Positions 1-63,778 of a DNA stretch of 64,000 nt are shown here, piece by piece. The translations under genes and the position numbers were made by a program. Each line of letters opens with the position of its first letter. Position 1 is the stretch's first letter. The DNA comes from Escherichia phage fKMPT1: the sequence record PP620640. One strand, given 5' to 3'. The notes under the pieces were generated by a model. The model worked only from the letters and a program-made list of their open reading frames with translations. It made no database searches and was not told the origin of the DNA.

Positions 1-63
1 CTAGAGGAAGCTTTTAAAAATAATATTGGTGCAATTGTAGTTGGTATTTTTAGTGTTATCGGA

Positions 64-363
64 ATGTATACCACGATGCAGGTTTCAAGTGGTAAACAAG
101 AGGTGTCTGTCAAAACAAAGTTACAACAGTTGGATAATTACACAAGTAGTAACTATTCAGCTATTCGTGATTTACAGTCTGACATTAGGCTTATCCAGTT
201 AGGGATGGAGAACCAGAAAGTCCAGTTAGAGAATGTTAAGGGTGAGAACGCAAAACTTACTAAAACCCTTGATAAATTCTCTGACAGCGTGAACAATCTG
301 GCTCAATCAGTATCAGCCCTCCAAGCTATTACTGAAAAGAACACAAAGAATACTGAAAAGTAA
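64..363 (+). CDS. hypothetical coiled-coil protein (C-terminal fragment of a longer gene possible)
   Basis: 99-aa ORF, heptad-like Q/L/K-rich sequence, followed by a hairpin terminator at 371-396. Confidence 0.5.
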   Translation: MYTTMQVSSGKQEVSVKTKLQQLDNYTSSNYSAIRDLQSDIRLIQLGMENQKVQLENVKGENAKLTKTLDKFSDSVNNLAQSVSALQAITEKNTKNTEK

Positions 364-38929: not shown

Positions 38930-39277
38930 ATGACATTTAAAGAGTTTTGTCAAGCTACTTTCATAATTGTTTTCTTAGTTGGGGCAGGTGTCTGGGGAGG
39001 ATACTCTTACAGAGACTACCAAGTTGCTGAAGCTGAGCTAAATAATGAGAAACTAATAAGTGTCGCTAAAGATGCTTATCAGGAAGGTTTAGTCACACTC
39101 AGCACCAATTACAAAAATGATTTGAAAGACGTGCTTGCTAAGAATAAGCATACAAAAGAGGTACTAACATATGAAAAAACTAAGCCAGAGTTTTATAATG
39201 TTTGTGTTACTGATAATTATGTCAGGGTGTTCAACGAACAAAGTGAACAGTACATTCAAAAACTCCCAAGTAAGTGA
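38930..39277 (+). CDS. i-spanin-like protein (N-terminal TM, periplasmic coiled-coil)
   Basis: TM segment FIIVFLVGAGVWGG then charged helical region; overlapped by lipoprotein ORF. Confidence 0.45.
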   Translation: MTFKEFCQATFIIVFLVGAGVWGGYSYRDYQVAEAELNNEKLISVAKDAYQEGLVTLSTNYKNDLKDVLAKNKHTKEVLTYEKTKPEFYNVCVTDNYVRVFNEQSEQYIQKLPSK

Positions 39278-39440
39278 GAGTGACAAGTACACTCAAGAAG
39301 AATCAAGATTCACTGTCAAAGGCAACACTGGTAGTGATGTGGCAGCAGCCCTTGAGTTTTATCGTGATGGTTTTTACCAGTGCACAATCAAAGCTAATAA
39401 CCTTATTGATATGATTTTATTAGGAAACAAACAGCAATGA
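39171..39440 (+). CDS. o-spanin-like lipoprotein
   Basis: lipoprotein signal with lipobox IMSGC; starts inside 38930-39277 in another frame. Confidence 0.45.
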   Translation: MKKLSQSFIMFVLLIIMSGCSTNKVNSTFKNSQVSESDKYTQEESRFTVKGNTGSDVAAALEFYRDGFYQCTIKANNLIDMILLGNKQQ

Positions 39441-53565: not shown

Positions 53566-54030
53566 TTACTTTGGGTATACGCTGTCAAGATAAATGTCAG
53601 CTTCCATTCTACGTCTGTTTTTAAGACCGTTTGAGGTGACCTTCTTACCTTTGACTGTAACCTTGTTCCACCACTGCATAGCTTCTGCACAACCTACCTT
53701 ATTACAAGCATTGTGGCGCTTGATAAATGTAGAATCCTGCATAGCTGTGATACCGATGTTGTATGTTTCACTTACAAGTGCATCGAACTCATTCTGAGAA
53801 GTTGGAACCTTGATAGCTTTGTTCACTGCTGCAACAAACTTTTCAACATCTGCGAGAAGATACTGTTCGGCTTGTTCAGCAGTAATTTTCATACCCATCT
53901 TAACAGGTTTACCAGAAATACTGGTTGTCCCATACCCAATTGTAGGGATTCCAGCAGAGTCTTCGTAAGCCTCTAACTTCAGACCTTCAAAGAACTTAAT
54001 AGCTTCTAAACCTTTTCTTGAGAGTTGCAT
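53566..54030 (-). CDS. lysozyme (T4 e-type, GH24) endolysin
   Basis: KGLEAIKFFEGLKLEAYEDSAGIPTIGYGT matches catalytic N-terminus of T4-type lysozymes. Confidence 0.8.
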   Translation of the reverse strand: MQLSRKGLEAIKFFEGLKLEAYEDSAGIPTIGYGTTSISGKPVKMGMKITAEQAEQYLLADVEKFVAAVNKAIKVPTSQNEFDALVSETYNIGITAMQDSTFIKRHNACNKVGCAEAMQWWNKVTVKGKKVTSNGLKNRRRMEADIYLDSVYPK

Positions 54031-56769: not shown

Positions 56770-58185
56770 ATGAGCGAATTATTTAAACATGCGCACCTTC
56801 ATGCAGGTCGAACTGAAAATGGTGCTGTAAACCATACTTCATCAATGTCTGCTCTTGTAGACTTTTACAAAGCTGCTGGTTCAAGCCGTAGCAATGTAGA
56901 AATCTTACCAGACTTGTTCTACAAAGCTTTGCGTGAGGATGTTGATGTTGCAGTTCGTATTTTGCTTCACATGCGAGATGTACGAGAAGGTATGGGTGAG
57001 CGTAAAGCCTTCAGAACTGTTTTACTTCAAGCAATCGAAGATAAAGTTTTAGAGCCTACACAGGTTCTTCGTATTATGGATAAGATTGCAGAACTTGGTC
57101 GTTTTGATGACTTCAAAATCTTCGTAGGTACTCGTTTTGAGACAGATGCCTTTAAGCATTTAGAAGCAGCATTACTAGACCCTGAGACAGCAGGTTTAGC
57201 AGCTAAGTGGTTACCACGAGTAAAACCACGACACAAACAGTTTGTAAAACGTTTCTGTAAGTTTGCTAACTTGAGTGAGAGAGAGTATCGCACACTGTTA
57301 TCTGTACTGTCTGATACTGTTGAGCAAAAAATCTCTGCTAATGAGTTTGGTAAGATTGACTACAGCAAGATTCCTTCACTCGCTGCTGCACGTTACCAAA
57401 AACTCTTTAACCGTAAAGATGGTGAACGCTACAAAGCTTACATCGAGTCACTCTCAAAAGGTGAGGCTAAGATTAACGCTGGTGCTGTTTACCCATACGA
57501 TGTGATTAAGTCTATCAAGTATGGTAATGCAGATGTTGCTAATGAGCAGTGGAAAGCACTACCAAACTGGATGGCAGAAGGTGAAAACATTTTGTGTATG
57601 ACTGATGTTTCAAGCTCAATGTCTTGGGTGAATCTTGGTTCAATCACTGCTCTTGATATTGGTGTATCTCTTGCCTTGTATGTAGCAGAACGCAACACTG
57701 GTTGCTTTAAGAATGAGTTAATGGTTTACTCAACAAACCCTCACTTCATCGAACTGAGTGGTGATTTACGAAACCGTCATCGTCAGGTAATGCGTCACGT
57801 TGAATATGGTTCAACTAACTTACAAGCAGCTTTTGACCGTATTCTTGAGGTAGGTAAGAGAAACAACTTGACTCAGAAAGATATGCCAAGTAAGCTTATT
57901 ATCTTCTCTGATATGGAGTTTAATCAGGTTGACGGTGCAAATGGTCGTACAAACTTTGAAGCAATTCAGAGTAAGTACAAAAAAGCTGGATACGAAATGC
58001 CACAACTGGTATTCTGGTACTTAGCAAACCGTAATGGTACTTGCGAAGTATCTGTTAAGGATAACGGTGTAGCAATGGTATCAGGGTTCTCTCCAGCCAC
58101 TTTAAAAGCTCTGCTTGGTGGTGAGAAGTTTGACCCAATCAGCGTAATGCTCAAAGCAGTAATGATTGACCGTTACATCTGGTAA
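56770..58185 (+). CDS. vWA-domain protein with helical N-terminal domain (TROVE/Ro60-like or DUF2828-like candidate)
   Basis: 471 aa; helical N-terminus, then MIDAS-like DVSSSM and SDMEF vWA features. Confidence 0.5.
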   Translation: MSELFKHAHLHAGRTENGAVNHTSSMSALVDFYKAAGSSRSNVEILPDLFYKALREDVDVAVRILLHMRDVREGMGERKAFRTVLLQAIEDKVLEPTQVLRIMDKIAELGRFDDFKIFVGTRFETDAFKHLEAALLDPETAGLAAKWLPRVKPRHKQFVKRFCKFANLSEREYRTLLSVLSDTVEQKISANEFGKIDYSKIPSLAAARYQKLFNRKDGERYKAYIESLSKGEAKINAGAVYPYDVIKSIKYGNADVANEQWKALPNWMAEGENILCMTDVSSSMSWVNLGSITALDIGVSLALYVAERNTGCFKNELMVYSTNPHFIELSGDLRNRHRQVMRHVEYGSTNLQAAFDRILEVGKRNNLTQKDMPSKLIIFSDMEFNQVDGANGRTNFEAIQSKYKKAGYEMPQLVFWYLANRNGTCEVSVKDNGVAMVSGFSPATLKALLGGEKFDPISVMLKAVMIDRYIW

Positions 58186-58203: not shown

Positions 58204-58232
58204 TTGACAATGTGTTTAATACCCTTTAATAT
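58204..58232 (+). promoter_or_regulatory. sigma70-like promoter upstream of tRNA array
   Basis: TTGACA - 17 nt - TAATAT. Confidence 0.5.
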
Positions 58233-58350
58233 GTTCTACATAGAAACGAAATGAGAGCTTTTCTAAGATACTGAAAAATATTTTAAAAAAGTTCTTGACA
58301 ACCACTAAAAAATAATGTTAAAGTGGTTACATAGAGTTTGAAAAGTTTAT

Positions 58351-58427
58351 CTCTGTTTAGCTCAGCTTGGTAGAGCGTTCCGTTTGGGGCGGTAAGGCCG
58401 GAGGTTCAAGTCCTCCAACAGAGACCA
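58351..58427 (+). tRNA. tRNA-Pro (anticodon TGG)
   Basis: hand-folded cloverleaf, GGTTCAAGTCC T-arm, encoded CCA. Confidence 0.7.
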
Positions 58428-58434
58428 AATTAAT

Positions 58435-58512
58435 GTTCCAGTAGACAAAATGGTAAAGTCACCACTCTTTCAAAGTGGATATTTGAGGGTTCAAATCCCT
58501 TCTGGAACGCCA
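58435..58512 (+). tRNA. tRNA-Glu (anticodon TTC)
   Basis: perfect acceptor and anticodon stems, encoded CCA. Confidence 0.7.
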
Positions 58513-58603
58513 GTTTTGACAGAAGACCAATTGCAGCAAACTTAATCTTATTCATCTGACACGAAATCGGACAAAGAAGAGATTTGGTCTGGTCATTAAG
58601 AAT

Positions 58604-58680
58604 TGCGGGTATAGAGAAAGGGCGTCTCACATGTCTCATTAGCATGGTATCGGCAGGTTCGACTCCTGCACCCGCCTCCA
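58604..58680 (+). tRNA. tRNA-Met (anticodon CAT), 1:72 mismatch
   Basis: T-arm and anticodon arm clear; acceptor 5' boundary uncertain. Confidence 0.55.
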
Positions 58681-58763
58681 AATTTACAGAAGACCGTTTA
58701 CAGCAATATTTATTAAATTTTTAGCGGAAAAATTGAAAGATACGGTCTGGTAATACTAAACAT

Positions 58764-58840
58764 GGTTAGGAAGCACATAAGGTATGTGCGGTCGCCTGTT
58801 AAGCGAATGGCACAGGGTTCGAATCCCTGACTAACCGCCA
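58764..58840 (+). tRNA. tRNA-Asn (anticodon GTT)
   Basis: cloverleaf with perfect T-stem, CCA encoded. Confidence 0.65.
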
Positions 58841-58909
58841 AATTTAGGAGAGAAGCGATTGCTCACCGATTTGTAAGGTGCAAGTCCTTAGCCTGAATAG
58901 AAATTAAAT

Positions 58910-58997
58910 GTGTCGTTATCCCGTAGATGGTAGCGGTGGGGACTGTAAATCCCTTGTCATTGAGACTCGGTAGGTTCGACTCCTACACGGCACACCA
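58910..58997 (+). tRNA. tRNA-Tyr (anticodon GTA), long variable arm
   Basis: 88 nt type II structure, anticodon loop CTGTAAA. Confidence 0.7.
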
Positions 58998-59003
58998 AAT
59001 AAA

Positions 59004-59081
59004 GGTTATGTAGTTTAATCTGGTTAAAATACTCCCCTGTCACGGGAGATGATGAGGGTTCGAATCCCTTCGTAACCGCCA
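59004..59081 (+). tRNA. tRNA-Asp (anticodon GTC)
   Basis: anticodon arm ctccc-CTGTCAC-gggag. Confidence 0.7.
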
Positions 59082-59537
59082 AATTATAATAAGTATTTCA
59101 AAATGATGTTTTGAGAGGGCTATTTAGCCCCTCCCTTAAAGAGTTCTTACGAGTATTCTTTAAAGGAGCAGAAGACCAAATTCAGCAAGAACGTATGAAA
59201 TTTCAAGCCAATTTAATTTTGAAAATTTAAAACTTGGTCTGGCTCAACAAATTTACAGAAGACCGTTTACAGCAAAACTTAAACAATCTATTTCTCGGTA
59301 AAGAAAAGGCGAAGGTTCGATTCCTTCACTCGGCAGATGTCGAGTTGGTGTAATGGTAGCACTTAAGATGATAAACAACGGTCTGGTAATTGTCTTTGCA
59401 GTAGCTTATGTGGCTAATTATGTCGTCCCATGAGTGCCGATGAATTTCCTTAGCATGATTCTAGATTAGCTTAATAGGAAATGACTCTACAGACCCTTTA
59501 GCAAGGTCTGCGTAGGTTACTGCAAAGATAATTTAAT

Positions 59538-59613
59538 GGAAGTGTAGCAGAATGGTGATGCGGCAGACTTTTAATCTGACAGGCGATGGGTTCGAATCCC
59601 TCCACTTCTACCA
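59538..59613 (+). tRNA. tRNA-Lys (anticodon TTT)
   Basis: cloverleaf; weak T-stem; paralogous to 60859-60934. Confidence 0.55.
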
Positions 59614-59617
59614 ATAT

Positions 59618-59694
59618 GGTTCAGTCGCAGATAAGGTAATGCAGGGGTTTCATAAGCCCTATGAATGTGGGTTCGATTCCCATCTGAACCTCCA
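59618..59694 (+). tRNA. tRNA-Met/Ile2 (anticodon CAT)
   Basis: perfect acceptor stem, anticodon loop TTCATAA. Confidence 0.65.
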
Positions 59695-59696
59695 AT

Positions 59697-59771
59697 TGTG
59701 GGTTAGCATAAATGGTAATGCAAACGGCTGATAACCGTTAGAAGAGGGTTCGATACCCTCACCTACAACCA
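59697..59771 (+). tRNA. tRNA-Ile (anticodon GAT)
   Basis: anticodon arm aacgg-CTGATAA-ccgtt perfect. Confidence 0.7.
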
Positions 59772-59786
59772 ATTTCAATAAAGTTG

Positions 59787-59815
59787 TTGACATTGAGATG
59801 TGACTACTTTATAGT
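59787..59815 (+). promoter_or_regulatory. sigma70-like promoter inside tRNA region
   Basis: TTGACA - 17 nt - TATAGT. Confidence 0.55.
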
Positions 59816-60109
59816 AACTGAAAATGATTCAGCATATGTATAATTCAAACACCAATACATGAGCGTTAGACGTAACACAATGTGGGGAAATTTGTTGTAC
59901 ATATTCTGAATAGTTTTCGTTGCGTAGCGTCTATTTTGCAAAGTTAAAATAAATGCAAACGACAATGTTTTTCTGGCAGTAGCTTGATAGGCTAAACACC
60001 AGTGAGGTCTTCCAACCCCTCATCAAAGAATTTGGCGTACTAGCCCACGGTATGATTAATAAGGTGGGCATCTTTAAGGGCTTTCTAAGAGAGTCTTTAA
60101 AGATAATTA

Positions 60110-60191
60110 CGGGGCGTATCTCAGCTGTCTTCTAAACAGCCGTTAACCGAGTAAGTGGAGTATGCGGGTTCGAGTCCTGCCGCCTCGACCA
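60110..60191 (+). tRNA. tRNA-like gene, non-canonical (no D-arm; anticodon-like hairpin with TCT)
   Basis: perfect acceptor and T-arm with CCA; internal hairpin gctgt-CTTCTAA-acagc; only 7 nt where D-arm should be. Confidence 0.4.
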
Positions 60192-60334
60192 ATTTAGTTA
60201 GCAGATTACTTAGACGACCTTATCGGGTCTTCCTGTAGGGAGGTGGTCTGTATCTCATGTTTTCCAGAACATGTAAATAATCTGAGAAGGGGCTTTACAG
60301 TGTTGTGAAAATACGGTAAGCTTCGAACTATAAT

Positions 60335-60417
60335 GTGGGACGATGTTAAGACTCTAAGGCATGAGCAACGGCTTCCAACACCGTTTCAAAGGGGTTCAAA
60401 TCCTCCGTCCCATGCCA
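60335..60417 (+). tRNA. tRNA-like gene, isotype undetermined (9-nt loop hairpin containing CCA/TCC)
   Basis: acceptor/T-arm/CCA canonical; internal hairpin aacgg-CTTCCAACA-ccgtt; D region irregular. Confidence 0.4.
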
Positions 60418-60430
60418 AAGTCTTATTAGG

Positions 60431-60518
60431 GGTAGGTAGCGGCTAATGGTAGCCAAACTGTCTTGAAAACAGTTGCCACTGTAGAGATACGGTGAGGGTT
60501 CGACTCCTTTACTTACCG
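60431..60518 (+). tRNA. tRNA-Ser (anticodon TGA), long variable arm; CCA not encoded
   Basis: anticodon arm actgt-CTTGAAA-acagt perfect; 20-nt variable arm. Confidence 0.65.
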
Positions 60519-60773
60519 CCTAATAAGATTTACACCGTCCATGCTCGCTCGCATTTTCGGTTTATCCCTCGTGTTGTCGTACACTTTGATAAAGCACCTA
60601 GTAGGTGTCACGGAGAAGAGATAATATCAAGCTCTCCAAAGGTTCTAGTCACCGGATTAAACAAGACTATGCAAAGACCTATTTAGGTCTTTTTAGAGGG
60701 CTTCTAAGGTTATTACAGCTTGTTGTGGAACCTTGTTGCTTAGGTTCTTAGAAGTTCTCTAAAAAGATTTAAT

Positions 60774-60851
60774 GGGAGATTGACGGTAATTGGTAAACCT
60801 ATCTCGCTTAGAACGAGATGTTTGAGGGTTCGAATCCCTTGTCTCCTACCA
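60774..60851 (+). tRNA. tRNA with Leu anticodon TAG, short variable arm
   Basis: anticodon arm tctcg-CTTAGAA-cgaga perfect; type I length; A73. Confidence 0.55.
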
Positions 60852-60858
60852 AATTAAT

Positions 60859-60934
60859 GCAGGTGTAGCAAAATGGTTATGCGGCTGACTCTTAATCAGT
60901 AAGACGATGGGTTCAATTCCCTCCACCTGTACCA
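60859..60934 (+). tRNA. tRNA-Lys (anticodon CTT)
   Basis: anticodon loop CTCTTAA; encoded CCA. Confidence 0.6.
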
Positions 60935-60940
60935 AACATT

Positions 60941-61016
60941 GGGGTCATAGTTTATATGGTTAAAATTCGAGTTTTGCAAACTTGGGAACTGAGTTCAATT
61001 CTCAGTGACTCCACCA
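60941..61016 (+). tRNA. tRNA-Ala (anticodon TGC)
   Basis: G3:U70 wobble in acceptor stem, anticodon loop TTTGCAA, perfect T-stem. Confidence 0.75.
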
Positions 61017-61022
61017 ATTAGT

Positions 61023-61097
61023 GCATCCATAGTTTAAACGGGAAAATTACAGTCTTCCAAACTGAGGTTGAGGGTTCGATTCCCTCTGGATGCTCCA
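61023..61097 (+). tRNA. tRNA-Gly (anticodon TCC)
   Basis: perfect acceptor stem, U73 discriminator, anticodon loop CTTCCAA. Confidence 0.7.
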
Positions 61098-61103
61098 AAC
61101 AAT

Positions 61104-61180
61104 GCTGCTTTCGTATAATTGGCTATTACACATCCCTTGTAAGGATGGAGATGCGGGTTCAAGTCCTGTGAGCAGCACCA
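61104..61180 (+). tRNA. tRNA-Thr (anticodon TGT)
   Basis: anticodon arm catcc-CTTGTAA-ggatg perfect. Confidence 0.7.
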
Positions 61181-61275
61181 ATTTAGAGGTCAAGTGAAAG
61201 ACCGCTGGTGTCAACTGAAGACCGTAACAAATTCCACGGAGTTGAGTTAGCGGCACAACTTCAGACCTCTTTCAT

Positions 61276-61350
61276 ACTCGCTTAGTTTATATGGTAAAAC
61301 ATCACCCTTACAAGATGAAGAAAAAGGTTCAAGTCCTTTAGTGAGTACCA
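61276..61350 (+). tRNA. tRNA-Val (anticodon TAC)
   Basis: perfect D- and T-stems, anticodon loop CTTACAA. Confidence 0.65.
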
Positions 61351-61351
61351 T

Positions 61352-61429
61352 GTTCCAGTATCCCAATTGGCAGAGGATGCAAGCTCAAACCTTGTACTAG
61401 TGACGGTTCGAATCCGTCTTGGAACACCA
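61352..61429 (+). tRNA. tRNA with Leu anticodon CAA, short variable arm
   Basis: anticodon arm gcaag-CTCAAAC-cttgt; type I length; A73. Confidence 0.55.
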
Positions 61430-61543
61430 ATTTTAGGAGAGCACTATGAGTGATAAGTCAATAGCAAAAAAGTTTAGAGCGTCATACCTAAACAGACGTA
61501 AAAACAAAGATTGTGAAAAACTGTATGGTGTTCTTGTAGGTAA

Positions 61544-61619
61544 GCAGGATTAGTTCAAATGGATAGAGCAGCAGTCTACGAAGCTGTTAATAGGGGTTCG
61601 AATCCCTTATCCTGCGCCA
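61544..61619 (+). tRNA. tRNA-Arg (anticodon ACG)
   Basis: perfect acceptor stem; anticodon loop CTACGAA. Confidence 0.65.
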
Positions 61620-61638
61620 ATTTAAAGAGGCTATTTAG

Positions 61639-62196
61639 ATGAGATATTTGAAGTATGCTTCATGGATTTTCTTAGCTTTGTTAGAGCCATTTGCAGCAAT
61701 CTTAGCAGTTATCTTAGCACCTTTCGTGGTTCCATTCTACAGTGAGAAGAAAGGACATCTACCTTTCGGCTTCAGATGGATGGAGACATACGACAACCCA
61801 ATTGATGGTGATGAAGGTCATGTCGAACGATGGGCTAAGATTAGAAAGATTGGTAAGCTGGGTGTCTACATGCAGAGAGTTGGATGGCTCTGGAGAAACA
61901 AAGCTTATAACTTCTCTTACCATGTATTAGGAAGAGATGTAAAAGATGTTACTAAGTGGAAAGGCAATATCAACGTAAGTTCTAACCCTGAAGATAATCA
62001 GACAGGTTATCTCCTAATGTGGAACAGTAATGCTTGGGGATTATTCGCTTTTATCCCATCAATTAAAGTCTTTGGTAAACAATTCTACTGGAGAATTTAT
62101 ATTGGGTGGAAGCTAAAAAGTGTTGTCCCAGAAGAAAGAGCATTCTCAAGGGAAAGAGTTATGTTGGCATTCTTTATTCATCCACTAAGAAAGTAA
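61639..62196 (+). CDS. membrane protein embedded in tRNA array
   Basis: 185 aa; N-terminal hydrophobic helix, aromatic-rich C-terminus, AAAGAGG RBS. Confidence 0.55.
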   Translation: MRYLKYASWIFLALLEPFAAILAVILAPFVVPFYSEKKGHLPFGFRWMETYDNPIDGDEGHVERWAKIRKIGKLGVYMQRVGWLWRNKAYNFSYHVLGRDVKDVTKWKGNINVSSNPEDNQTGYLLMWNSNAWGLFAFIPSIKVFGKQFYWRIYIGWKLKSVVPEERAFSRERVMLAFFIHPLRK

Positions 62197-62204
62197 AGAT
62201 TTAA

Positions 62205-62280
62205 AGGGGATTAGTTTACAAGGTTAAAACCTCGGTCTTTGAAATCGAAGAAGTTGGTTCAATTCCAACATCCCCCGCCA
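62205..62280 (+). tRNA. tRNA-Gln (anticodon TTG)
   Basis: perfect D-, anticodon and T-stems; 1:72 mismatch. Confidence 0.65.
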
Positions 62281-62282
62281 AT

Positions 62283-62361
62283 GCTCCATTACTCCAATTG
62301 GCAGAGAGGCCAGACTTAAAATCTGTGTTATGTATCGGTTCGAATCCGATATGGAGTACCA
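62283..62361 (+). tRNA. tRNA with Leu anticodon TAA, short variable arm
   Basis: anticodon loop CTTAAAA; perfect T-stem; A73. Confidence 0.55.
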
Positions 62362-62366
62362 AATTT

Positions 62367-62442
62367 AGCGGTATAGCATAACTGGCAATGCAGCAGTCTC
62401 TGAAGCTGTCCTATTAAGGTTCAAATCCTTATGCCGCTGCCA
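62367..62442 (+). tRNA. tRNA-Gln (anticodon CTG)
   Basis: perfect D- and T-stems; anticodon loop CTCTGAA. Confidence 0.65.
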
Positions 62443-62473
62443 CTTCTAAGGGTTCTTACGAGAGTCCTTAAAT

Positions 62474-62549
62474 GTGGCCTTATCATAAACGGTAATGACC
62501 CATGCTGTGAACATGGTCTATACGGGTTCAAATCCCGTAGGTCACCCCA
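62474..62549 (+). tRNA. tRNA-His (anticodon GTG)
   Basis: all four stems near-perfect; C73 discriminator. Confidence 0.75.
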
Positions 62550-62554
62550 ATTTA

Positions 62555-62631
62555 TAGTCCAAGTAGCTTATATGGTTAAAGCGCGTGTCTGAAAAACATG
62601 AGAAGAGGGTTCAAATCCCACTGGACTACCA
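62555..62631 (+). tRNA. tRNA-Phe (anticodon GAA), boundaries approximate
   Basis: anticodon arm cgtgt-CTGAAAA-acatg; acceptor/D junction irregular. Confidence 0.5.
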
Positions 62632-62646
62632 ATTTCAAAGGTGCTT

Positions 62647-63382
62647 AATGAAAGAGATGACAGAACAAGGTAAGGAGATTTTTAATCTCTTAAAAACTGG
62701 TAAAGGGTTTTCTAACCCCCTTATTACTGGTGCAGCAGTTCTCGGTGGAACCGTAGCTGCCTCTACATCACTTGTAAGCTCTATTAGCTCTGTAACAGAC
62801 CCTACAATAAAAGATAAGCTTGTTGCTGCTGGGCTTACAACAGTTCTGCTTAGCAGCTTTACAACGAGTCTGACAAGCACTACAGCAACTACTAAGACCC
62901 TAACAGACTATGGTCAAAAGTCCATTGATGAGTTTTCATCACGTATGCAGGTAGCAAAAGGTTATTCTAATGCTATGGGTGCAGCAGGTGAACAAGTTGG
63001 CTGTACACCATTTAGTGGTATTATGGGTGTTGCTACAGAGTATGGTCAAAAAGCTATGGATACGATTAACAGCGCACTAGATGGCGTTAATGATGTATTA
63101 AGCGACTTACAAGATGCTATTGACAAAGGTCTTGATACTGTTTCTGATTTAGCTAACCAAGCTGTTAGCAAGATTAATGAAGGTATCTCGAAGATTACAG
63201 CTTATGCAGATGAAGTTGTGCAGATGATTGAAGAAGAAGCTGCCCTTATTGCAGAGTACCTTAAAACGAATATCAATGGGTTCTTAGCAGGTATCTTACC
63301 AGACTGGTTTGATGATGCTTGTAAAACTGGTGTGATTGATACTATTGCAACACCAGAAATGAAGAACGCATTACAGAAATAA
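62647..63382 (+). CDS. hypothetical Ser/Thr/Ala-rich protein
   Basis: about 245 aa from ATG after AAAGG; track ORF start 62585 overlaps tRNA-Phe and is unlikely. Confidence 0.5.
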
Positions 63383-63383
63383 C

Positions 63384-63476
63384 GGAAGATTAACCCTAAA
63401 AGGTAAGGGAGCAGTTTGCTAAACTGCCAGTAGCTGAGAAATCGGTGTACCAGTTCAAGTCTGGTATCTTCCTCCA
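63384..63476 (+). tRNA. tRNA-Ser (anticodon GCT), long variable arm
   Basis: 93 nt; anticodon arm gcagt-TTGCTAA-actgc perfect; T-stem perfect; CCA encoded. Confidence 0.7.
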
Positions 63477-63480
63477 ATTT

Positions 63481-63556
63481 GAATCCGTGACAGAAATGGC
63501 TATGTGCCTGTCTGCAAAACAGGTTTATAAGGGTTCGAGTCCCTTCGGATTCTCCA
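63481..63556 (+). tRNA. tRNA-Cys (anticodon GCA)
   Basis: perfect acceptor stem, U73, anticodon arm cctgt-CTGCAAA-acagg. Confidence 0.7.
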
Positions 63557-63778
63557 AGTTATTTTACTCTCTCTCAATTAAAATAATAATAATGCCCTGC
63601 TATAAGTATTCTTCCTTTCGCTACCGAAGAGTATTTTTAGACAGGGCTTTTTTACAGAGTTATACTTTATAAGAAGCCTTATACAGTATGTCTCTGACGT
63701 ACATTGTGGTTTCTCCTTGACGGTCTCTGTGCCGTCTTTTTTAAGGGGAAACAAGATTAATTATTTGGAGAAAACATA

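What the first reader, a model, noticed from the sequence alone, without database searches (positions are those of the whole stretch)
61639..62196. Membrane protein gene embedded in the middle of the tRNA array
A 185-aa ORF with a good RBS, an N-terminal TM helix and a W/Y/F-rich soluble part sits between tRNA-Arg and tRNA-Gln. Protein genes inside phage tRNA islands are often accessory or host-interaction functions.
Basis: seen in the sequence. Interest (0 to 1): 0.35.

Follow-up and report, generated by a model that had tools for sequence, protein, structure and literature searches.

The report
Dispensable lysis-linked membrane protein among tRNAs
The gene is real and conserved: it encodes a single-pass membrane protein of an uncharacterised phage family (DUF7338) that some databases call a holin, but a published knockout screen shows it is dispensable, and its neighbours in other phages suggest an accessory role in controlling host-cell lysis.

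Summary
ORF 61639-62196 (+, 185 aa) sits 19 nt after tRNA-Arg and 8 nt before tRNA-Gln in a Felix O1-like phage (100% identical to Salmonella phage fBSPA4). It is a full-length DUF7338 / phrog_2143 member, under strong purifying selection (dN/dS about 0.07), with a confident predicted fold that has no match in the PDB.

The ortholog in phage Mushroom is annotated "holin" and was described in 2015 as a class-III holin. That is a prediction only. My evidence argues against it being the essential holin:
- It has no sequence or fold relation to T4 holin T.
- T4-like carriers also encode T.
- In at least two lineages it sits beside classical holins.
- In the Bas63 knockout screen its ortholog scores as dispensable, while the endolysin and another membrane protein score as needed.

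It is still tied to lysis. In 7-8 independent lineages it is the first gene of a cassette in the order DUF7338, small membrane protein, endolysin.

Best reading (about 0.4): an accessory inner-membrane lysis regulator, co-transcribed with the tRNAs. Rivals are a redundant holin, a superinfection-exclusion factor, or an envelope enzyme. Interest is moderate.

The parts
61639..62196 (+). DUF7338 gene (185 codons plus stop), ortholog of Felix O1 ORF48/gp48, Mushroom gp87 and Bas63 gene 153
   Evidence: ORF listing. Pfam PF24027 at 209.8 bits against a cut-off of 27. phrog_2143. Same position in Felix O1 and Mushroom. dN/dS 0.07.
61624..61630 (+). Shine-Dalgarno sequence AAAGAGG, 8 nt before the ATG
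   Evidence: Read directly from the sequence. The same AAAGAGG is present in Felix O1 and L038.
61657..61737 (+). Codons 7-33: the single N-terminal transmembrane helix. It contains an acidic residue (E16) and three prolines, including P28, which is conserved in 89% of the family.
   Evidence: AF2 model helix 2-33. Hydropathy and composition. Conservation.
61738..62193 (+). Codons 34-185: basic, aromatic-rich alpha+beta globular domain. Near-invariant residues are T50, D52, G57, D58, W83, R86, N87, Y90, G156, W157 and K158.
   Evidence: Model with pLDDT 92.7. No PDB fold match. Conservation over 173 family representatives.
61544..61619 (+). tRNA-Arg(acg), ending 19 nt before the start codon
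   Evidence: ARAGORN.
62205..62280 (+). tRNA-Gln(ttg), starting 8 nt after the stop codon
   Evidence: ARAGORN. The 8-nt gap is conserved in all Felixounavirus loci, and in L038 where the flanking tRNAs differ.
58351..63556 (+). Array of 25 tRNA genes in which the gene is embedded. This is the presumed co-transcription unit.
   Evidence: ARAGORN. There is no room for a separate promoter or terminator next to the ORF.
58204..58324 (+). Two sigma-70-like promoter matches (58204-58232 and 58295-58324) just upstream of the first tRNA
   Evidence: Consensus scan. These are matches only, and the region as a whole is not significantly enriched.
63719..63736 (+). Terminator-like hairpin followed by a T-run, just after the last tRNA
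   Evidence: Consensus scan.
1..360 (+). Single-TM plus coiled-coil protein, cut by the window start. It is the ortholog of Mushroom gp56 and occupies the position of Bas63 gene 29. It is a better holin candidate for this phage, and the same kind of protein sits next to DUF7338 in other lineages.
   Evidence: tblastn at 97% identity to Mushroom gp56. Bas63 gene 29 has negative fitness. Same architecture beside DUF7338 in L101, L086, L010 and Aeh1.
53569..54030 (-). Endolysin (lysozyme), 7.6 kb away and on the other strand
   Evidence: tblastn at 97% identity to Mushroom gp94 endolysin.
38930..39437 (+). Overlapping i-spanin and o-spanin genes
   Evidence: tblastn to Mushroom gp124 and gp123.

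Best explanation
The ORF encodes a non-essential inner-membrane protein of the DUF7338 family that works with the phage lysis machinery. It most likely modulates a separate holin (an antiholin-like or timing function) and does not form the lethal hole itself.

Shown:
- One N-terminal TM helix anchors a 152-aa basic alpha+beta domain of a fold not seen in the PDB. The domain carries a cluster of near-invariant polar residues.
- The gene has no space for its own promoter or terminator.

Inferred:
- The gene is transcribed as part of the tRNA-array transcript, and its mRNA is released by tRNA 5' and 3' processing.
- The conserved polar site binds a common envelope or holin-associated ligand and so tunes when the holin fires.
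For: 1. Linkage to lysis genes. In 7 firm and 1 tentative of 28 usable sequence clusters, an endolysin lies within two genes of the homolog. Three endolysin families are involved, plus one tentative. Against a 3-8% background this gives P of about 1e-3 to 1e-6. The cassettes are:
   - L076 (16 loci): DUF7338, then Phage_holin_4_1, then Phage_lysozyme.
   - L094: DUF7338, then GTA_holin_3TM, then GH108.
   - L086 and L066: DUF7338, then a small TM protein, then a lysozyme.
   - L069: GH19, then DUF7338.
   - L010: tail fibre, TM protein, DUF7338, TM protein, YkuD-like enzyme, coiled-coil proteins.
   - L101: DUF7338, 96-aa TM/coiled-coil protein, GH108, then a 72-aa protein without a TM, then a 2-TM protein, then an Rz-type spanin.
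   - Aeh1 cluster: tail fibre, DUF7338, T4 e lysozyme, Rz-like protein, asiA.
   - S16-like L064: an e lysozyme 916 nt downstream.
2. It is not the holin itself. Classical holins sit next to it. T4-like carriers also encode T: LF82-5, vB_Ecl_id4496 and Xman appear in both hit lists.
3. It is dispensable. Bas63 gene 153 scores +0.84 to +1.85 on host S17 and +0.75 to +0.81 on MG1655. The endolysin scores -0.5 to -1.2, and gene 29 scores -0.35 to -1.7.
4. It is nevertheless strongly conserved: dN/dS 0.07 and 889 family clusters. That fits a function that matters in nature but not in single-phage laboratory culture, as for the T4 r genes.
5. Packing between tRNAs: 15-27 nt upstream and 8 nt downstream in Felix O1-like phages, and 15 nt upstream in M5.1.
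Against: - No lysis-timing measurement exists for any family member.
- In this genome the gene is 7.6 kb from the endolysin and unlinked to the spanins.
- Roughly half of the clusters are not in recognisable lysis cassettes. Some follow tail-fibre genes at the end of an operon (L074, L067, L006, L073). Others lie among replication genes or unknown genes.
- A set of invariant T/D/R/N/Y/K residues looks more like an enzyme or ligand site than like known antiholins.
- T4-like carriers presumably already have the RI and RIII antiholins (established knowledge of T4-type phages; not checked here).
- The Bas63 score for gene 153 seems to rest on a single insertion variant (blank eps column, tiny variance). 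An insertion near the 3' end could leave the protein functional.
- Topology is unresolved.
Confidence: 0.4

Rival explanations
1. It is a true holin of T4-type class III topology (one TMD, large periplasmic domain) but of a family unrelated to gp t, as annotated in phage Mushroom. It accumulates in the inner membrane and forms holes that release the soluble lysozyme. In Felixounavirus it would be redundant with a second holin.
For: - It is annotated "holin" in Mushroom and described there as a class-III holin.
- It has one N-terminal TMD containing an acidic residue and conserved prolines.
- The Aeh1-cluster T4-like phages are reported to lack T (PMC6669705). All 13 of their records carry DUF7338. 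In Aeh1 and AsFcp_4, the two loci I examined, it sits in the T4 t slot directly upstream of the lysozyme, followed by an Rz-like protein. That is the classical holin, endolysin, spanin order.
- Felixounavirus has no T homolog.
- Two-TM variants imply a C-out orientation.
Against: - The Bas63 ortholog is dispensable, while the endolysin and gene 29 are not.
- It co-occurs with Phage_holin_4_1, GTA_holin_3TM and T.
- It shows no homology to T: hhalign probability 0.1%, and no PDB fold hit.
- The invariant polar residues and a net charge of +11 are unusual for holins.
- In Aeh1 the downstream TM/coiled-coil protein could be the holin instead.
- The absence of T in Aeh1 is taken from a paper. I did not re-check it on the whole genome.
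Confidence: 0.2
2. It is a superinfection-exclusion or envelope-modifying accessory protein. Made by the infected cell, it would sit in the inner membrane and block DNA entry or tail penetration by later-arriving phages, like T4 Imm or Sp in role.
For: - It is dispensable in single-phage culture yet under strong purifying selection.
- In several lineages it is the gene right after the tail-fibre or tail-fibre-assembly genes, a common site for exclusion genes.
- Sigma-70-like promoters in front of the tRNA array would allow early expression.
- Every carrier I could classify has a contractile tail (T4-like, Felix O1-like, jumbo, Mu-type baseplate).
Against: - It has no similarity to any known exclusion or defence protein (PADLOC none; PHROG function unknown).
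- Exclusion proteins are usually lineage-specific and fast-evolving. This family keeps invariant polar residues across phages of Enterobacteria, Aeromonas, Vibrio, Pseudomonas, Rhizobium, Betaproteobacteria and Selenomonadaceae.
- Tight coupling to holin and endolysin genes in 7-8 lineages is not explained by this reading.
Confidence: 0.2
3. It is a membrane-anchored enzyme or binding protein that acts on a universal envelope component (a lipid-linked precursor, phospholipid, peptidoglycan or LPS). It is only loosely tied to lysis, for example by weakening the envelope before lysis.
For: - Near-invariant T50, D52, D58, R86, N87, Y90 and K158 across 173 representatives below 50% identity look like an active or ligand site.
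- The globular domain is confidently folded.
- One family member (P0079) carries an extra Cys-rich extension whose GCGPS...CDKHDNCY motif resembles secreted phospholipase A2. That resemblance is recalled from memory.
Against: - There is no match to any enzyme family by sequence or by fold.
- The phospholipase-like motif got no Pfam or PDB support.
- No cofactor or substrate can be inferred.
Confidence: 0.15

Closest known systems
T4 gp t holin (class III / IIIa; Pfam Phage_holin_T)
   Same: Overall architecture: one N-terminal TM segment followed by a domain of about 150 aa. In Aeh1-type phages it occupies the very locus where T4 has t. The Mushroom authors called it a class-III holin.
   Different: - No sequence relationship: hhalign probability 0.1%, and no Pfam hit.
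- No fold match to anything in the PDB.
- Only about 6 residues precede the TM, against 34 in T.
- It co-exists with T in many T4-like phages.
- It is dispensable in Bas63, whereas t is required for T4 lysis (established knowledge).
- The Young laboratory states that all known class III holins of this topology are gp t homologs (PMC12894885).
T4 RI antiholin, and lysis regulators such as phiKZ gp143
   Same: These are accessory proteins that set lysis timing through the holin. They are dispensable for plaque formation and genetically tied to lysis (phiKZ gp143 lies between holin and endolysin). DUF7338 sits directly beside holin-type genes in several lineages.
   Different: No sequence or structural similarity was detected. 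RI is a 97-aa protein with a releasable signal-anchor, and gp143 is soluble and cytoplasmic. DUF7338 is a 185-aa protein with a strongly hydrophobic anchor. No timing phenotype has been measured.
i-spanins (lambda Rz type)
   Same: An N-terminal TM anchor with a C-terminal domain of 100-150 aa, encoded in lysis cassettes.
   Different: The DUF7338 domain is a globular alpha+beta fold, not a coiled coil. This phage and its relatives already have an i-/o-spanin pair. L101 has a separate Phage_lysis spanin. No partner lipoprotein gene is evident.
Pfam DUF7338 (PF24027) / PHROG 2143
   Same: Full-length, high-scoring member of both.
   Different: Neither entry carries a function. No paper in the searchable library mentions DUF7338.

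Membership tests
Pfam DUF7338 (PF24027) | Score above the curated gathering threshold over the full model | tested here: met
   209.8 bits against a cut-off of 27, covering residues 1-184 of the protein and positions 1-176 of the 180-position model.
PHROG 2143 | Significant full-length HMM match | tested here: met
   E = 2.7e-81, residues 1-185 of the protein against positions 1-183 of 186.
T4 gp t-type class III holin | Sequence homology to gp t (Phage_holin_T) | tested here: not met
   No Pfam hit other than DUF7338 at E up to 1. hhalign of the family profile against T4 T gives probability 0.1%.
T4 gp t-type class III holin | Fold of the soluble domain like the solved T periplasmic domain | tested here: not met
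T4 gp t-type class III holin | Single TMD with N-in, C-out topology and a periplasmic C-terminal domain | tested here: inconclusive
   A single TMD is present. The charge count favours C-in: the flank after the TM has more K+R than the N-terminal tail in 114 of 170 members, the domain has median net charge +7, and no Cys pairs co-vary. The 2-TM variants P0173 and P0118 favour C-out.
Holin (functional class) | Required for endolysin release, so that loss abolishes lysis and phage propagation | tested here: not met
   Published screen: Bas63 gene 153 has positive fitness on S17 and MG1655, while the endolysin is negative. Caveat: the score probably rests on a single insertion variant, and a second holin could mask the loss.
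Holin (functional class) | Gene adjacent to the endolysin gene | tested here: inconclusive
   Not adjacent in this genome, where the endolysin is 7.6 kb away on the other strand. Adjacent or within two genes in 7-8 other lineages, but usually with another small TM protein in between.
Holin (functional class) | Lethal, energy-poison-triggerable hole formation on expression | not testable with these tools
   Needs expression experiments.
Antiholin / holin-associated lysis regulator | Genetic linkage to a holin gene | tested here: met
   Directly upstream of Phage_holin_4_1 (L076 cluster) and GTA_holin_3TM (L094), and beside holin-like small TM proteins in L066, L086, L010 and L101. Not linked in this genome.
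Antiholin / holin-associated lysis regulator | Dispensable for propagation, with loss changing lysis timing | tested here: inconclusive
   Dispensability is shown in Bas63. Lysis timing has not been measured anywhere I could find.
Antiholin / holin-associated lysis regulator | Homology to a known antiholin (T4 RI or RIII, P1 LydB, and so on) | tested here: not met
   No PDB sequence or fold hit. No named Pfam, NCBIfam or PHROG family.
Known superinfection-exclusion or defence proteins | Match to a catalogued exclusion or defence family | tested here: not met
   PADLOC gives 0 families. PHROG function is unknown.

The most novel reading that the evidence does not exclude
DUF7338 is a new, widespread class of membrane-anchored lysis-timing regulators with a fold not seen in the PDB. 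Through its invariant polar pocket it would sense a common envelope or periplasmic signal and restrain unrelated holins (class I, class II, T-type and single-TM/coiled-coil types) in contractile-tailed phages of many bacterial phyla. In the enterobacterial clade it would be delivered from a tRNA-punctuated transcript.
Probability: 0.22. Interest if true: 0.6.

Novelty: new variant of a known kind. Interest (0 to 1): 0.4.

Why it matters
The family has at least 889 sequence clusters and appears in 565 phage genome records, including many Felix O1-like, T4-like and Klebsiella phages that are being developed for therapy and biocontrol. In those records it is labelled either "hypothetical" or "holin".

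If the holin label is wrong, as the knockout data suggest, an error is spreading through phage annotation, and the real Felix O1 holin is still unassigned. That question has been open since the 2010 genome paper. The single-TM/coiled-coil protein at the start of this window becomes the better candidate.

If DUF7338 is a general holin regulator, it would be a new and widely distributed handle on lysis timing.

The tight packing between tRNAs is also a clean natural case for asking whether tRNA processing is used to release a phage mRNA.

Tried and rejected
- **Homology to T4 holin T.** Rejected: hhalign probability 0.1%, and no PDB fold hit.
- **A known enzyme or defence family.** Nothing in NCBIfam, PADLOC or PDB sequences.
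- **afdb50 fold search.** The library was not available.
- **Recent co-transfer of the gene with its flanking tRNAs between Felix O1-like and T4-like phages.** Not supported: the tRNAs are only 73-85% identical and the gene about 72%.
- **A disulfide signature to place the domain in the periplasm.** No co-varying Cys pairs, only one frequent unpaired Cys column.
- **The positive-inside rule.** It contradicts the published N-in/C-out call but is not decisive.
- **A phospholipase A2 domain in the P0079 extension.** No Pfam or PDB support.
- **A named family for the recurring single-TM/coiled-coil neighbours.** Only sub-threshold coiled-coil noise.
- **A canonical holin elsewhere in Felixounavirus.** All small TM proteins fall in PHROGs of unknown function, and there is no T homolog.
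- **Bacterial genome scan.** Only 7 loci, mostly prophage-like or phage contigs.
- **Literature.** No paper mentions DUF7338, and I found no experimental study of this protein's role in lysis.
- **Not done.** I did not scan the whole Aeh1 genome for T. I relied on PMC6669705.

Full report
**What is there**

The window is a Felix O1-like myovirus. The 1-kb stretch around the finding is 100% identical to Salmonella phage fBSPA4 and 95-98% identical to more than 200 Felixounavirus records. The ORF at 61639-62196 (+) has an ATG start and 185 codons. An AAAGAGG sequence lies 8 nt upstream.

The ORF sits 19 nt after tRNA-Arg(acg) and 8 nt before tRNA-Gln(ttg), inside an array of 25 tRNA genes at 58351-63556. 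Residues about 7-33 form one hydrophobic helix. The remaining 152 residues are 18% W/Y/F and strongly basic, with net charge +11.

**It is a real, conserved gene**

- It matches Pfam DUF7338 over its whole length (E = 3e-62) and phrog_2143, function unknown.
- tblastn finds it in 565 phage records.
- A profile search finds 889 clusters at 50% identity, nearly all single-domain proteins of 170-195 aa.
- All 26 Felixounavirus-clade copies I examined are intact. The median pairwise dN/dS among 23 distinct alleles is 0.066.

**Structure**

An AlphaFold2 model built on 32 homologs is confident (mean pLDDT 92.7, pTM 0.83). It shows a helix at 2-33, a small helical region at 43-96, and an antiparallel sheet at 106-184.

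Across 173 representatives, these residues are 85-99% conserved: P28, L41, P42, W47, T50, D52, G57, D58, W83, L84, R86, N87, Y90, G109, G123, G156, W157 and K158. The polar subset looks like a ligand or active site.

**What was already said about it**

- The 2010 Felix O1 genome paper found no holin next to the lysin. It listed gp79, gp116, gp118, gp119 and gp131 as candidates, not gp48 (PMC3185647).
- In the Mushroom record, the gene annotated "holin" is CPT_Mushroom87, in exactly this position, between tRNA-Gln downstream and tRNA-Leu upstream (tRNA-Arg is not annotated in that record). A few other records copy the label.
- No paper in the library mentions DUF7338, and I found no experiment on its lysis function.

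So the holin label is a prediction.

**Test of the holin reading**

1. There is no relation to T4 holin T. The only Pfam hit is DUF7338, hhalign of the family profile against T4 T gives probability 0.1%, and there is no fold hit. A 2026 Young-laboratory paper notes that all known class III holins of the T4-type topology are close gp t homologs (PMC12894885).
2. T4-like carriers have both genes at different loci. Escherichia phage LF82-5, Enterobacter phage vB_Ecl_id4496 and Citrobacter phage Xman appear in both the DUF7338 and the T hit lists.
3. In other lineages a classical holin lies right next to it. These are Phage_holin_4_1 in the 16-locus L076 cluster and GTA_holin_3TM in L094.
4. There is direct experimental evidence from the PhageMaP barcode-insertion screen of Bas63, a Felixounavirus.
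   - The screen lists gene 153 "holin*" between tRNA-Leu and tRNA-Gln, with the same downstream order as in this window: Gln, Leu, Gln, His, Phe, membrane protein, tRNA, Cys.
   - Gene 153 scores +0.89, +0.84 and +1.85 on host S17, and +0.81, +0.78 and +0.75 on MG1655. Scores below 0 mean essential.
   - The true endolysin (gene 123) scores -1.05 to -1.19 and -0.53 to -0.86 on the same two hosts.
   - A second "holin*" (gene 29) scores -0.35 to -0.48 and -1.43 to -1.70 (doi 10.1101/2024.10.10.617714, supplementary file 3).
   - The asterisk only means the name was taken from a BLASTp hit.
   - Caveats: the gene 153 value seems to come from a single insertion variant, and the spanins also score as non-essential in this assay.

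I identified Bas63 gene 153 by gene order, not by aligning sequences.

Taken together, DUF7338 is not the essential holin of Felixounavirus. By its position next to thymidylate synthase and the tail-fibre genes, gene 29 corresponds to Mushroom gp56, a 123-aa single-TM plus coiled-coil protein. Its ortholog lies at window 1-360. That protein is the better holin candidate.

**It is nevertheless tied to lysis**

I collected 93 loci from viral, genome and annotated collections and grouped them into 28 clusters at 75% identity. Four further lineages came from contig look-ups. Twenty-eight clusters had enough flanking sequence to use.

A census of the two genes on either side showed endolysin families as the commonest neighbours. 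The arrangements, locus by locus, are:

| Locus or cluster | Gene order |
|---|---|
| L076 cluster | DUF7338, Phage_holin_4_1, Phage_lysozyme |
| L094 | DUF7338, GTA_holin_3TM, GH108 with PG_binding_3 |
| L086 | DUF7338, 89-aa TM protein, lysozyme with a signal-anchor-like N-terminus |
| L066 | DUF7338, TM protein, Phage_lysozyme |
| L069 jumbo-phage cluster | GH19-like enzyme, DUF7338, small TM proteins |
| L010 (Selenomonadaceae prophage) | tail fibre, TM protein, DUF7338, TM protein, YkuD-like enzyme (weak hit), coiled-coil proteins, integrase |
| L101 | Mu-type baseplate, tail fibre, 193-aa protein, DUF7338, 96-aa TM/coiled-coil protein, GH108 endolysin, 72-aa protein without a TM, 2-TM protein, Phage_lysis spanin (frames overlapping or abutting) |
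| Aeh1 and AsFcp_4 | tail fibre, DUF7338, T4 e-type lysozyme, Rz-like protein, asiA |
| L064 (S16-like) | e-type lysozyme 916 nt downstream |

Seven firm and one tentative case among 28 clusters is far above a 3-8% expectation (P of about 1e-3 to 1e-6).

The Aeh1 case is the strongest argument for a holin role. The gene occupies the T4 t slot. The Aeh1 cluster is reported to lack the T holin (PMC6669705). All 13 Aeh1-cluster records carry the homolog. I did not re-scan the Aeh1 genome for T, and the downstream TM/coiled-coil protein could be the holin there.

**The tRNA link**

- All Felixounavirus loci have the gene embedded in the array with the same 8-nt gap to the next tRNA. This holds even in L038, where the flanking tRNAs are Asp and Ser.
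- Pseudomonas phage M5.1 (Otagovirus, about 33% identity) also has it embedded, 15 nt after a tRNA-Gln.
- The T4-like clades with 55-62% identity to the Felix O1-like protein lie 29-990 nt from tRNA genes. In WG01 the gene lies between tRNA.2 and e.8, which is the T4 tRNA slot.
- Distant members (42% identity or less) have no tRNA within 6 kb, apart from M5.1 and L008.
- tRNA sequences of the two phage groups are only 73-85% identical, so there is no sign of recent joint transfer.

So the tRNA position is a trait of one clade, not of the family. It does not predict function.

It does bear on expression. With 19 nt and 8 nt of spacer, the gene cannot have its own promoter or terminator. Sigma-70-like sites lie just before the first tRNA, and a terminator-like hairpin lies just after the last (consensus matches only). 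I infer co-transcription with the tRNAs, and release of the mRNA by tRNA end-processing. This is not shown, and I found no transcriptome.

**Topology**

The published N-in/C-out call is not secure.

- Against it: the 15 residues after the TM carry more K+R than the short N-terminal tail in 114 of 170 members, the domain has a median net charge of +7, and no cysteine pairs co-vary.
- For it: rare variants with an extra N-terminal TM followed by a K/R-rich loop (P0173, P0118) imply that the family TM runs from inside to outside.

I leave this open.

**Conclusion**

The gene is an already catalogued but functionally uncharacterised family member that some records label as a holin on prediction alone.

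The best-supported reading (about 0.4) is an accessory inner-membrane component of the lysis module, probably a regulator of a separate holin. The rivals are a redundant, non-T class III holin (0.2), a superinfection-exclusion or envelope-modifying protein (0.2), and an envelope-directed enzyme (0.15).

Interest is moderate. It rests on four points: the family is large, its predicted fold has no PDB relative, it is linked to lysis cassettes across phyla, and the spreading holin label conflicts with knockout data. The mechanism, however, remains inferred.

Noticed in passing
window 62648-63382 (+): A second protein gene is embedded in the array, between tRNA-Phe and tRNA-Ser. It is a 244-aa gp49-like protein (phrog_2114) with tape-measure-like similarity. 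The mechanical GTG start at 62585 overlaps tRNA-Phe, so the ATG at 62648 is the likely start. Felix O1 Gp49 was detected in the virion proteome, and the Bas63 ortholog (gene 159) is dispensable.
   Followed up: partly
window 1-360 (+): A single-TM plus coiled-coil protein (Mushroom gp56 family, phrog_4038), cut by the window start. The gene in the corresponding position in Bas63 (gene 29) has clearly negative fitness. The same architecture recurs next to DUF7338 in L101, L086, L010 and Aeh1. It is probably the real Felixounavirus holin, or otherwise important.
   Followed up: partly
window 61447-61548 (+): A 33-codon ORF with an AGGAG ribosome-binding site lies between tRNA-Leu(caa) and tRNA-Arg and overlaps the first bases of tRNA-Arg. 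Several related records annotate two hypothetical proteins in this interval.
   Followed up: no
window 58204-58324 and 63719-63736 (+): Two sigma-70-like promoter matches lie just before the first tRNA, and a GC-rich hairpin with a T-run lies just after the last. The array with its two embedded protein genes looks like one self-contained transcription unit, separate from the terminase operon.
   Followed up: partly
window 59082-59537 and 59772-60430: These gaps in the tRNA array have no long ORF here. In Felix O1 the corresponding gaps carry HNH homing endonuclease genes (ORF44 and ORF45), and a third (ORF47) sits between tRNA-Gly and tRNA-Thr, which are adjacent in this window. This phage therefore has endonuclease-free alleles.
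   Followed up: partly
L038 5899-6658: An 88%-identical copy of the gene is flanked by tRNA-Asp and tRNA-Ser instead of Arg and Gln, yet keeps the same 8-nt gap to the downstream tRNA. The array has been reshuffled around the gene.
   Followed up: partly
protein P0079 (288 aa), residues about 183-288: This is a DUF7338 protein with a Cys-rich C-terminal extension containing GCGPS...SCDKHDNCY, followed by a second TM segment. From memory, the motif resembles the Ca-loop and His-Asp site of group XII secreted phospholipase A2. No Pfam or PDB sequence match supports this.
   Followed up: partly
window 56770-58182 (+): A Ro60-like or DUF2828-type RNA-binding protein gene lies directly upstream of the tRNA array. 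The PhageMaP authors report its Bas63 ortholog (g130) as a counter to the Ppl defence system and speculate that some of the annotated tRNAs are Y RNAs.
   Followed up: no
PP693301.1 (Yersinia phage vB_YenM_P8) 46870-47406 and 124475-125119: The same record labels both the DUF7338 homolog and the true T homolog as "holin". This shows how the unverified label is spreading.
   Followed up: no
L013 29873-30421 (Mushroom gp127): The protein annotated "endoribonuclease, T4 RegB-like" begins with a signal-peptide-like hydrophobic segment (MKKLILGLCLMFTAHLSYA...). That is odd for a cytoplasmic RNase.
   Followed up: no
L064 7471-7968: In an S16-like T4-type phage, the e-type lysozyme gene lies only 916 nt downstream of the DUF7338 gene. 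At least one enterobacterial T4-like lineage therefore keeps the two genes close together.
   Followed up: partly
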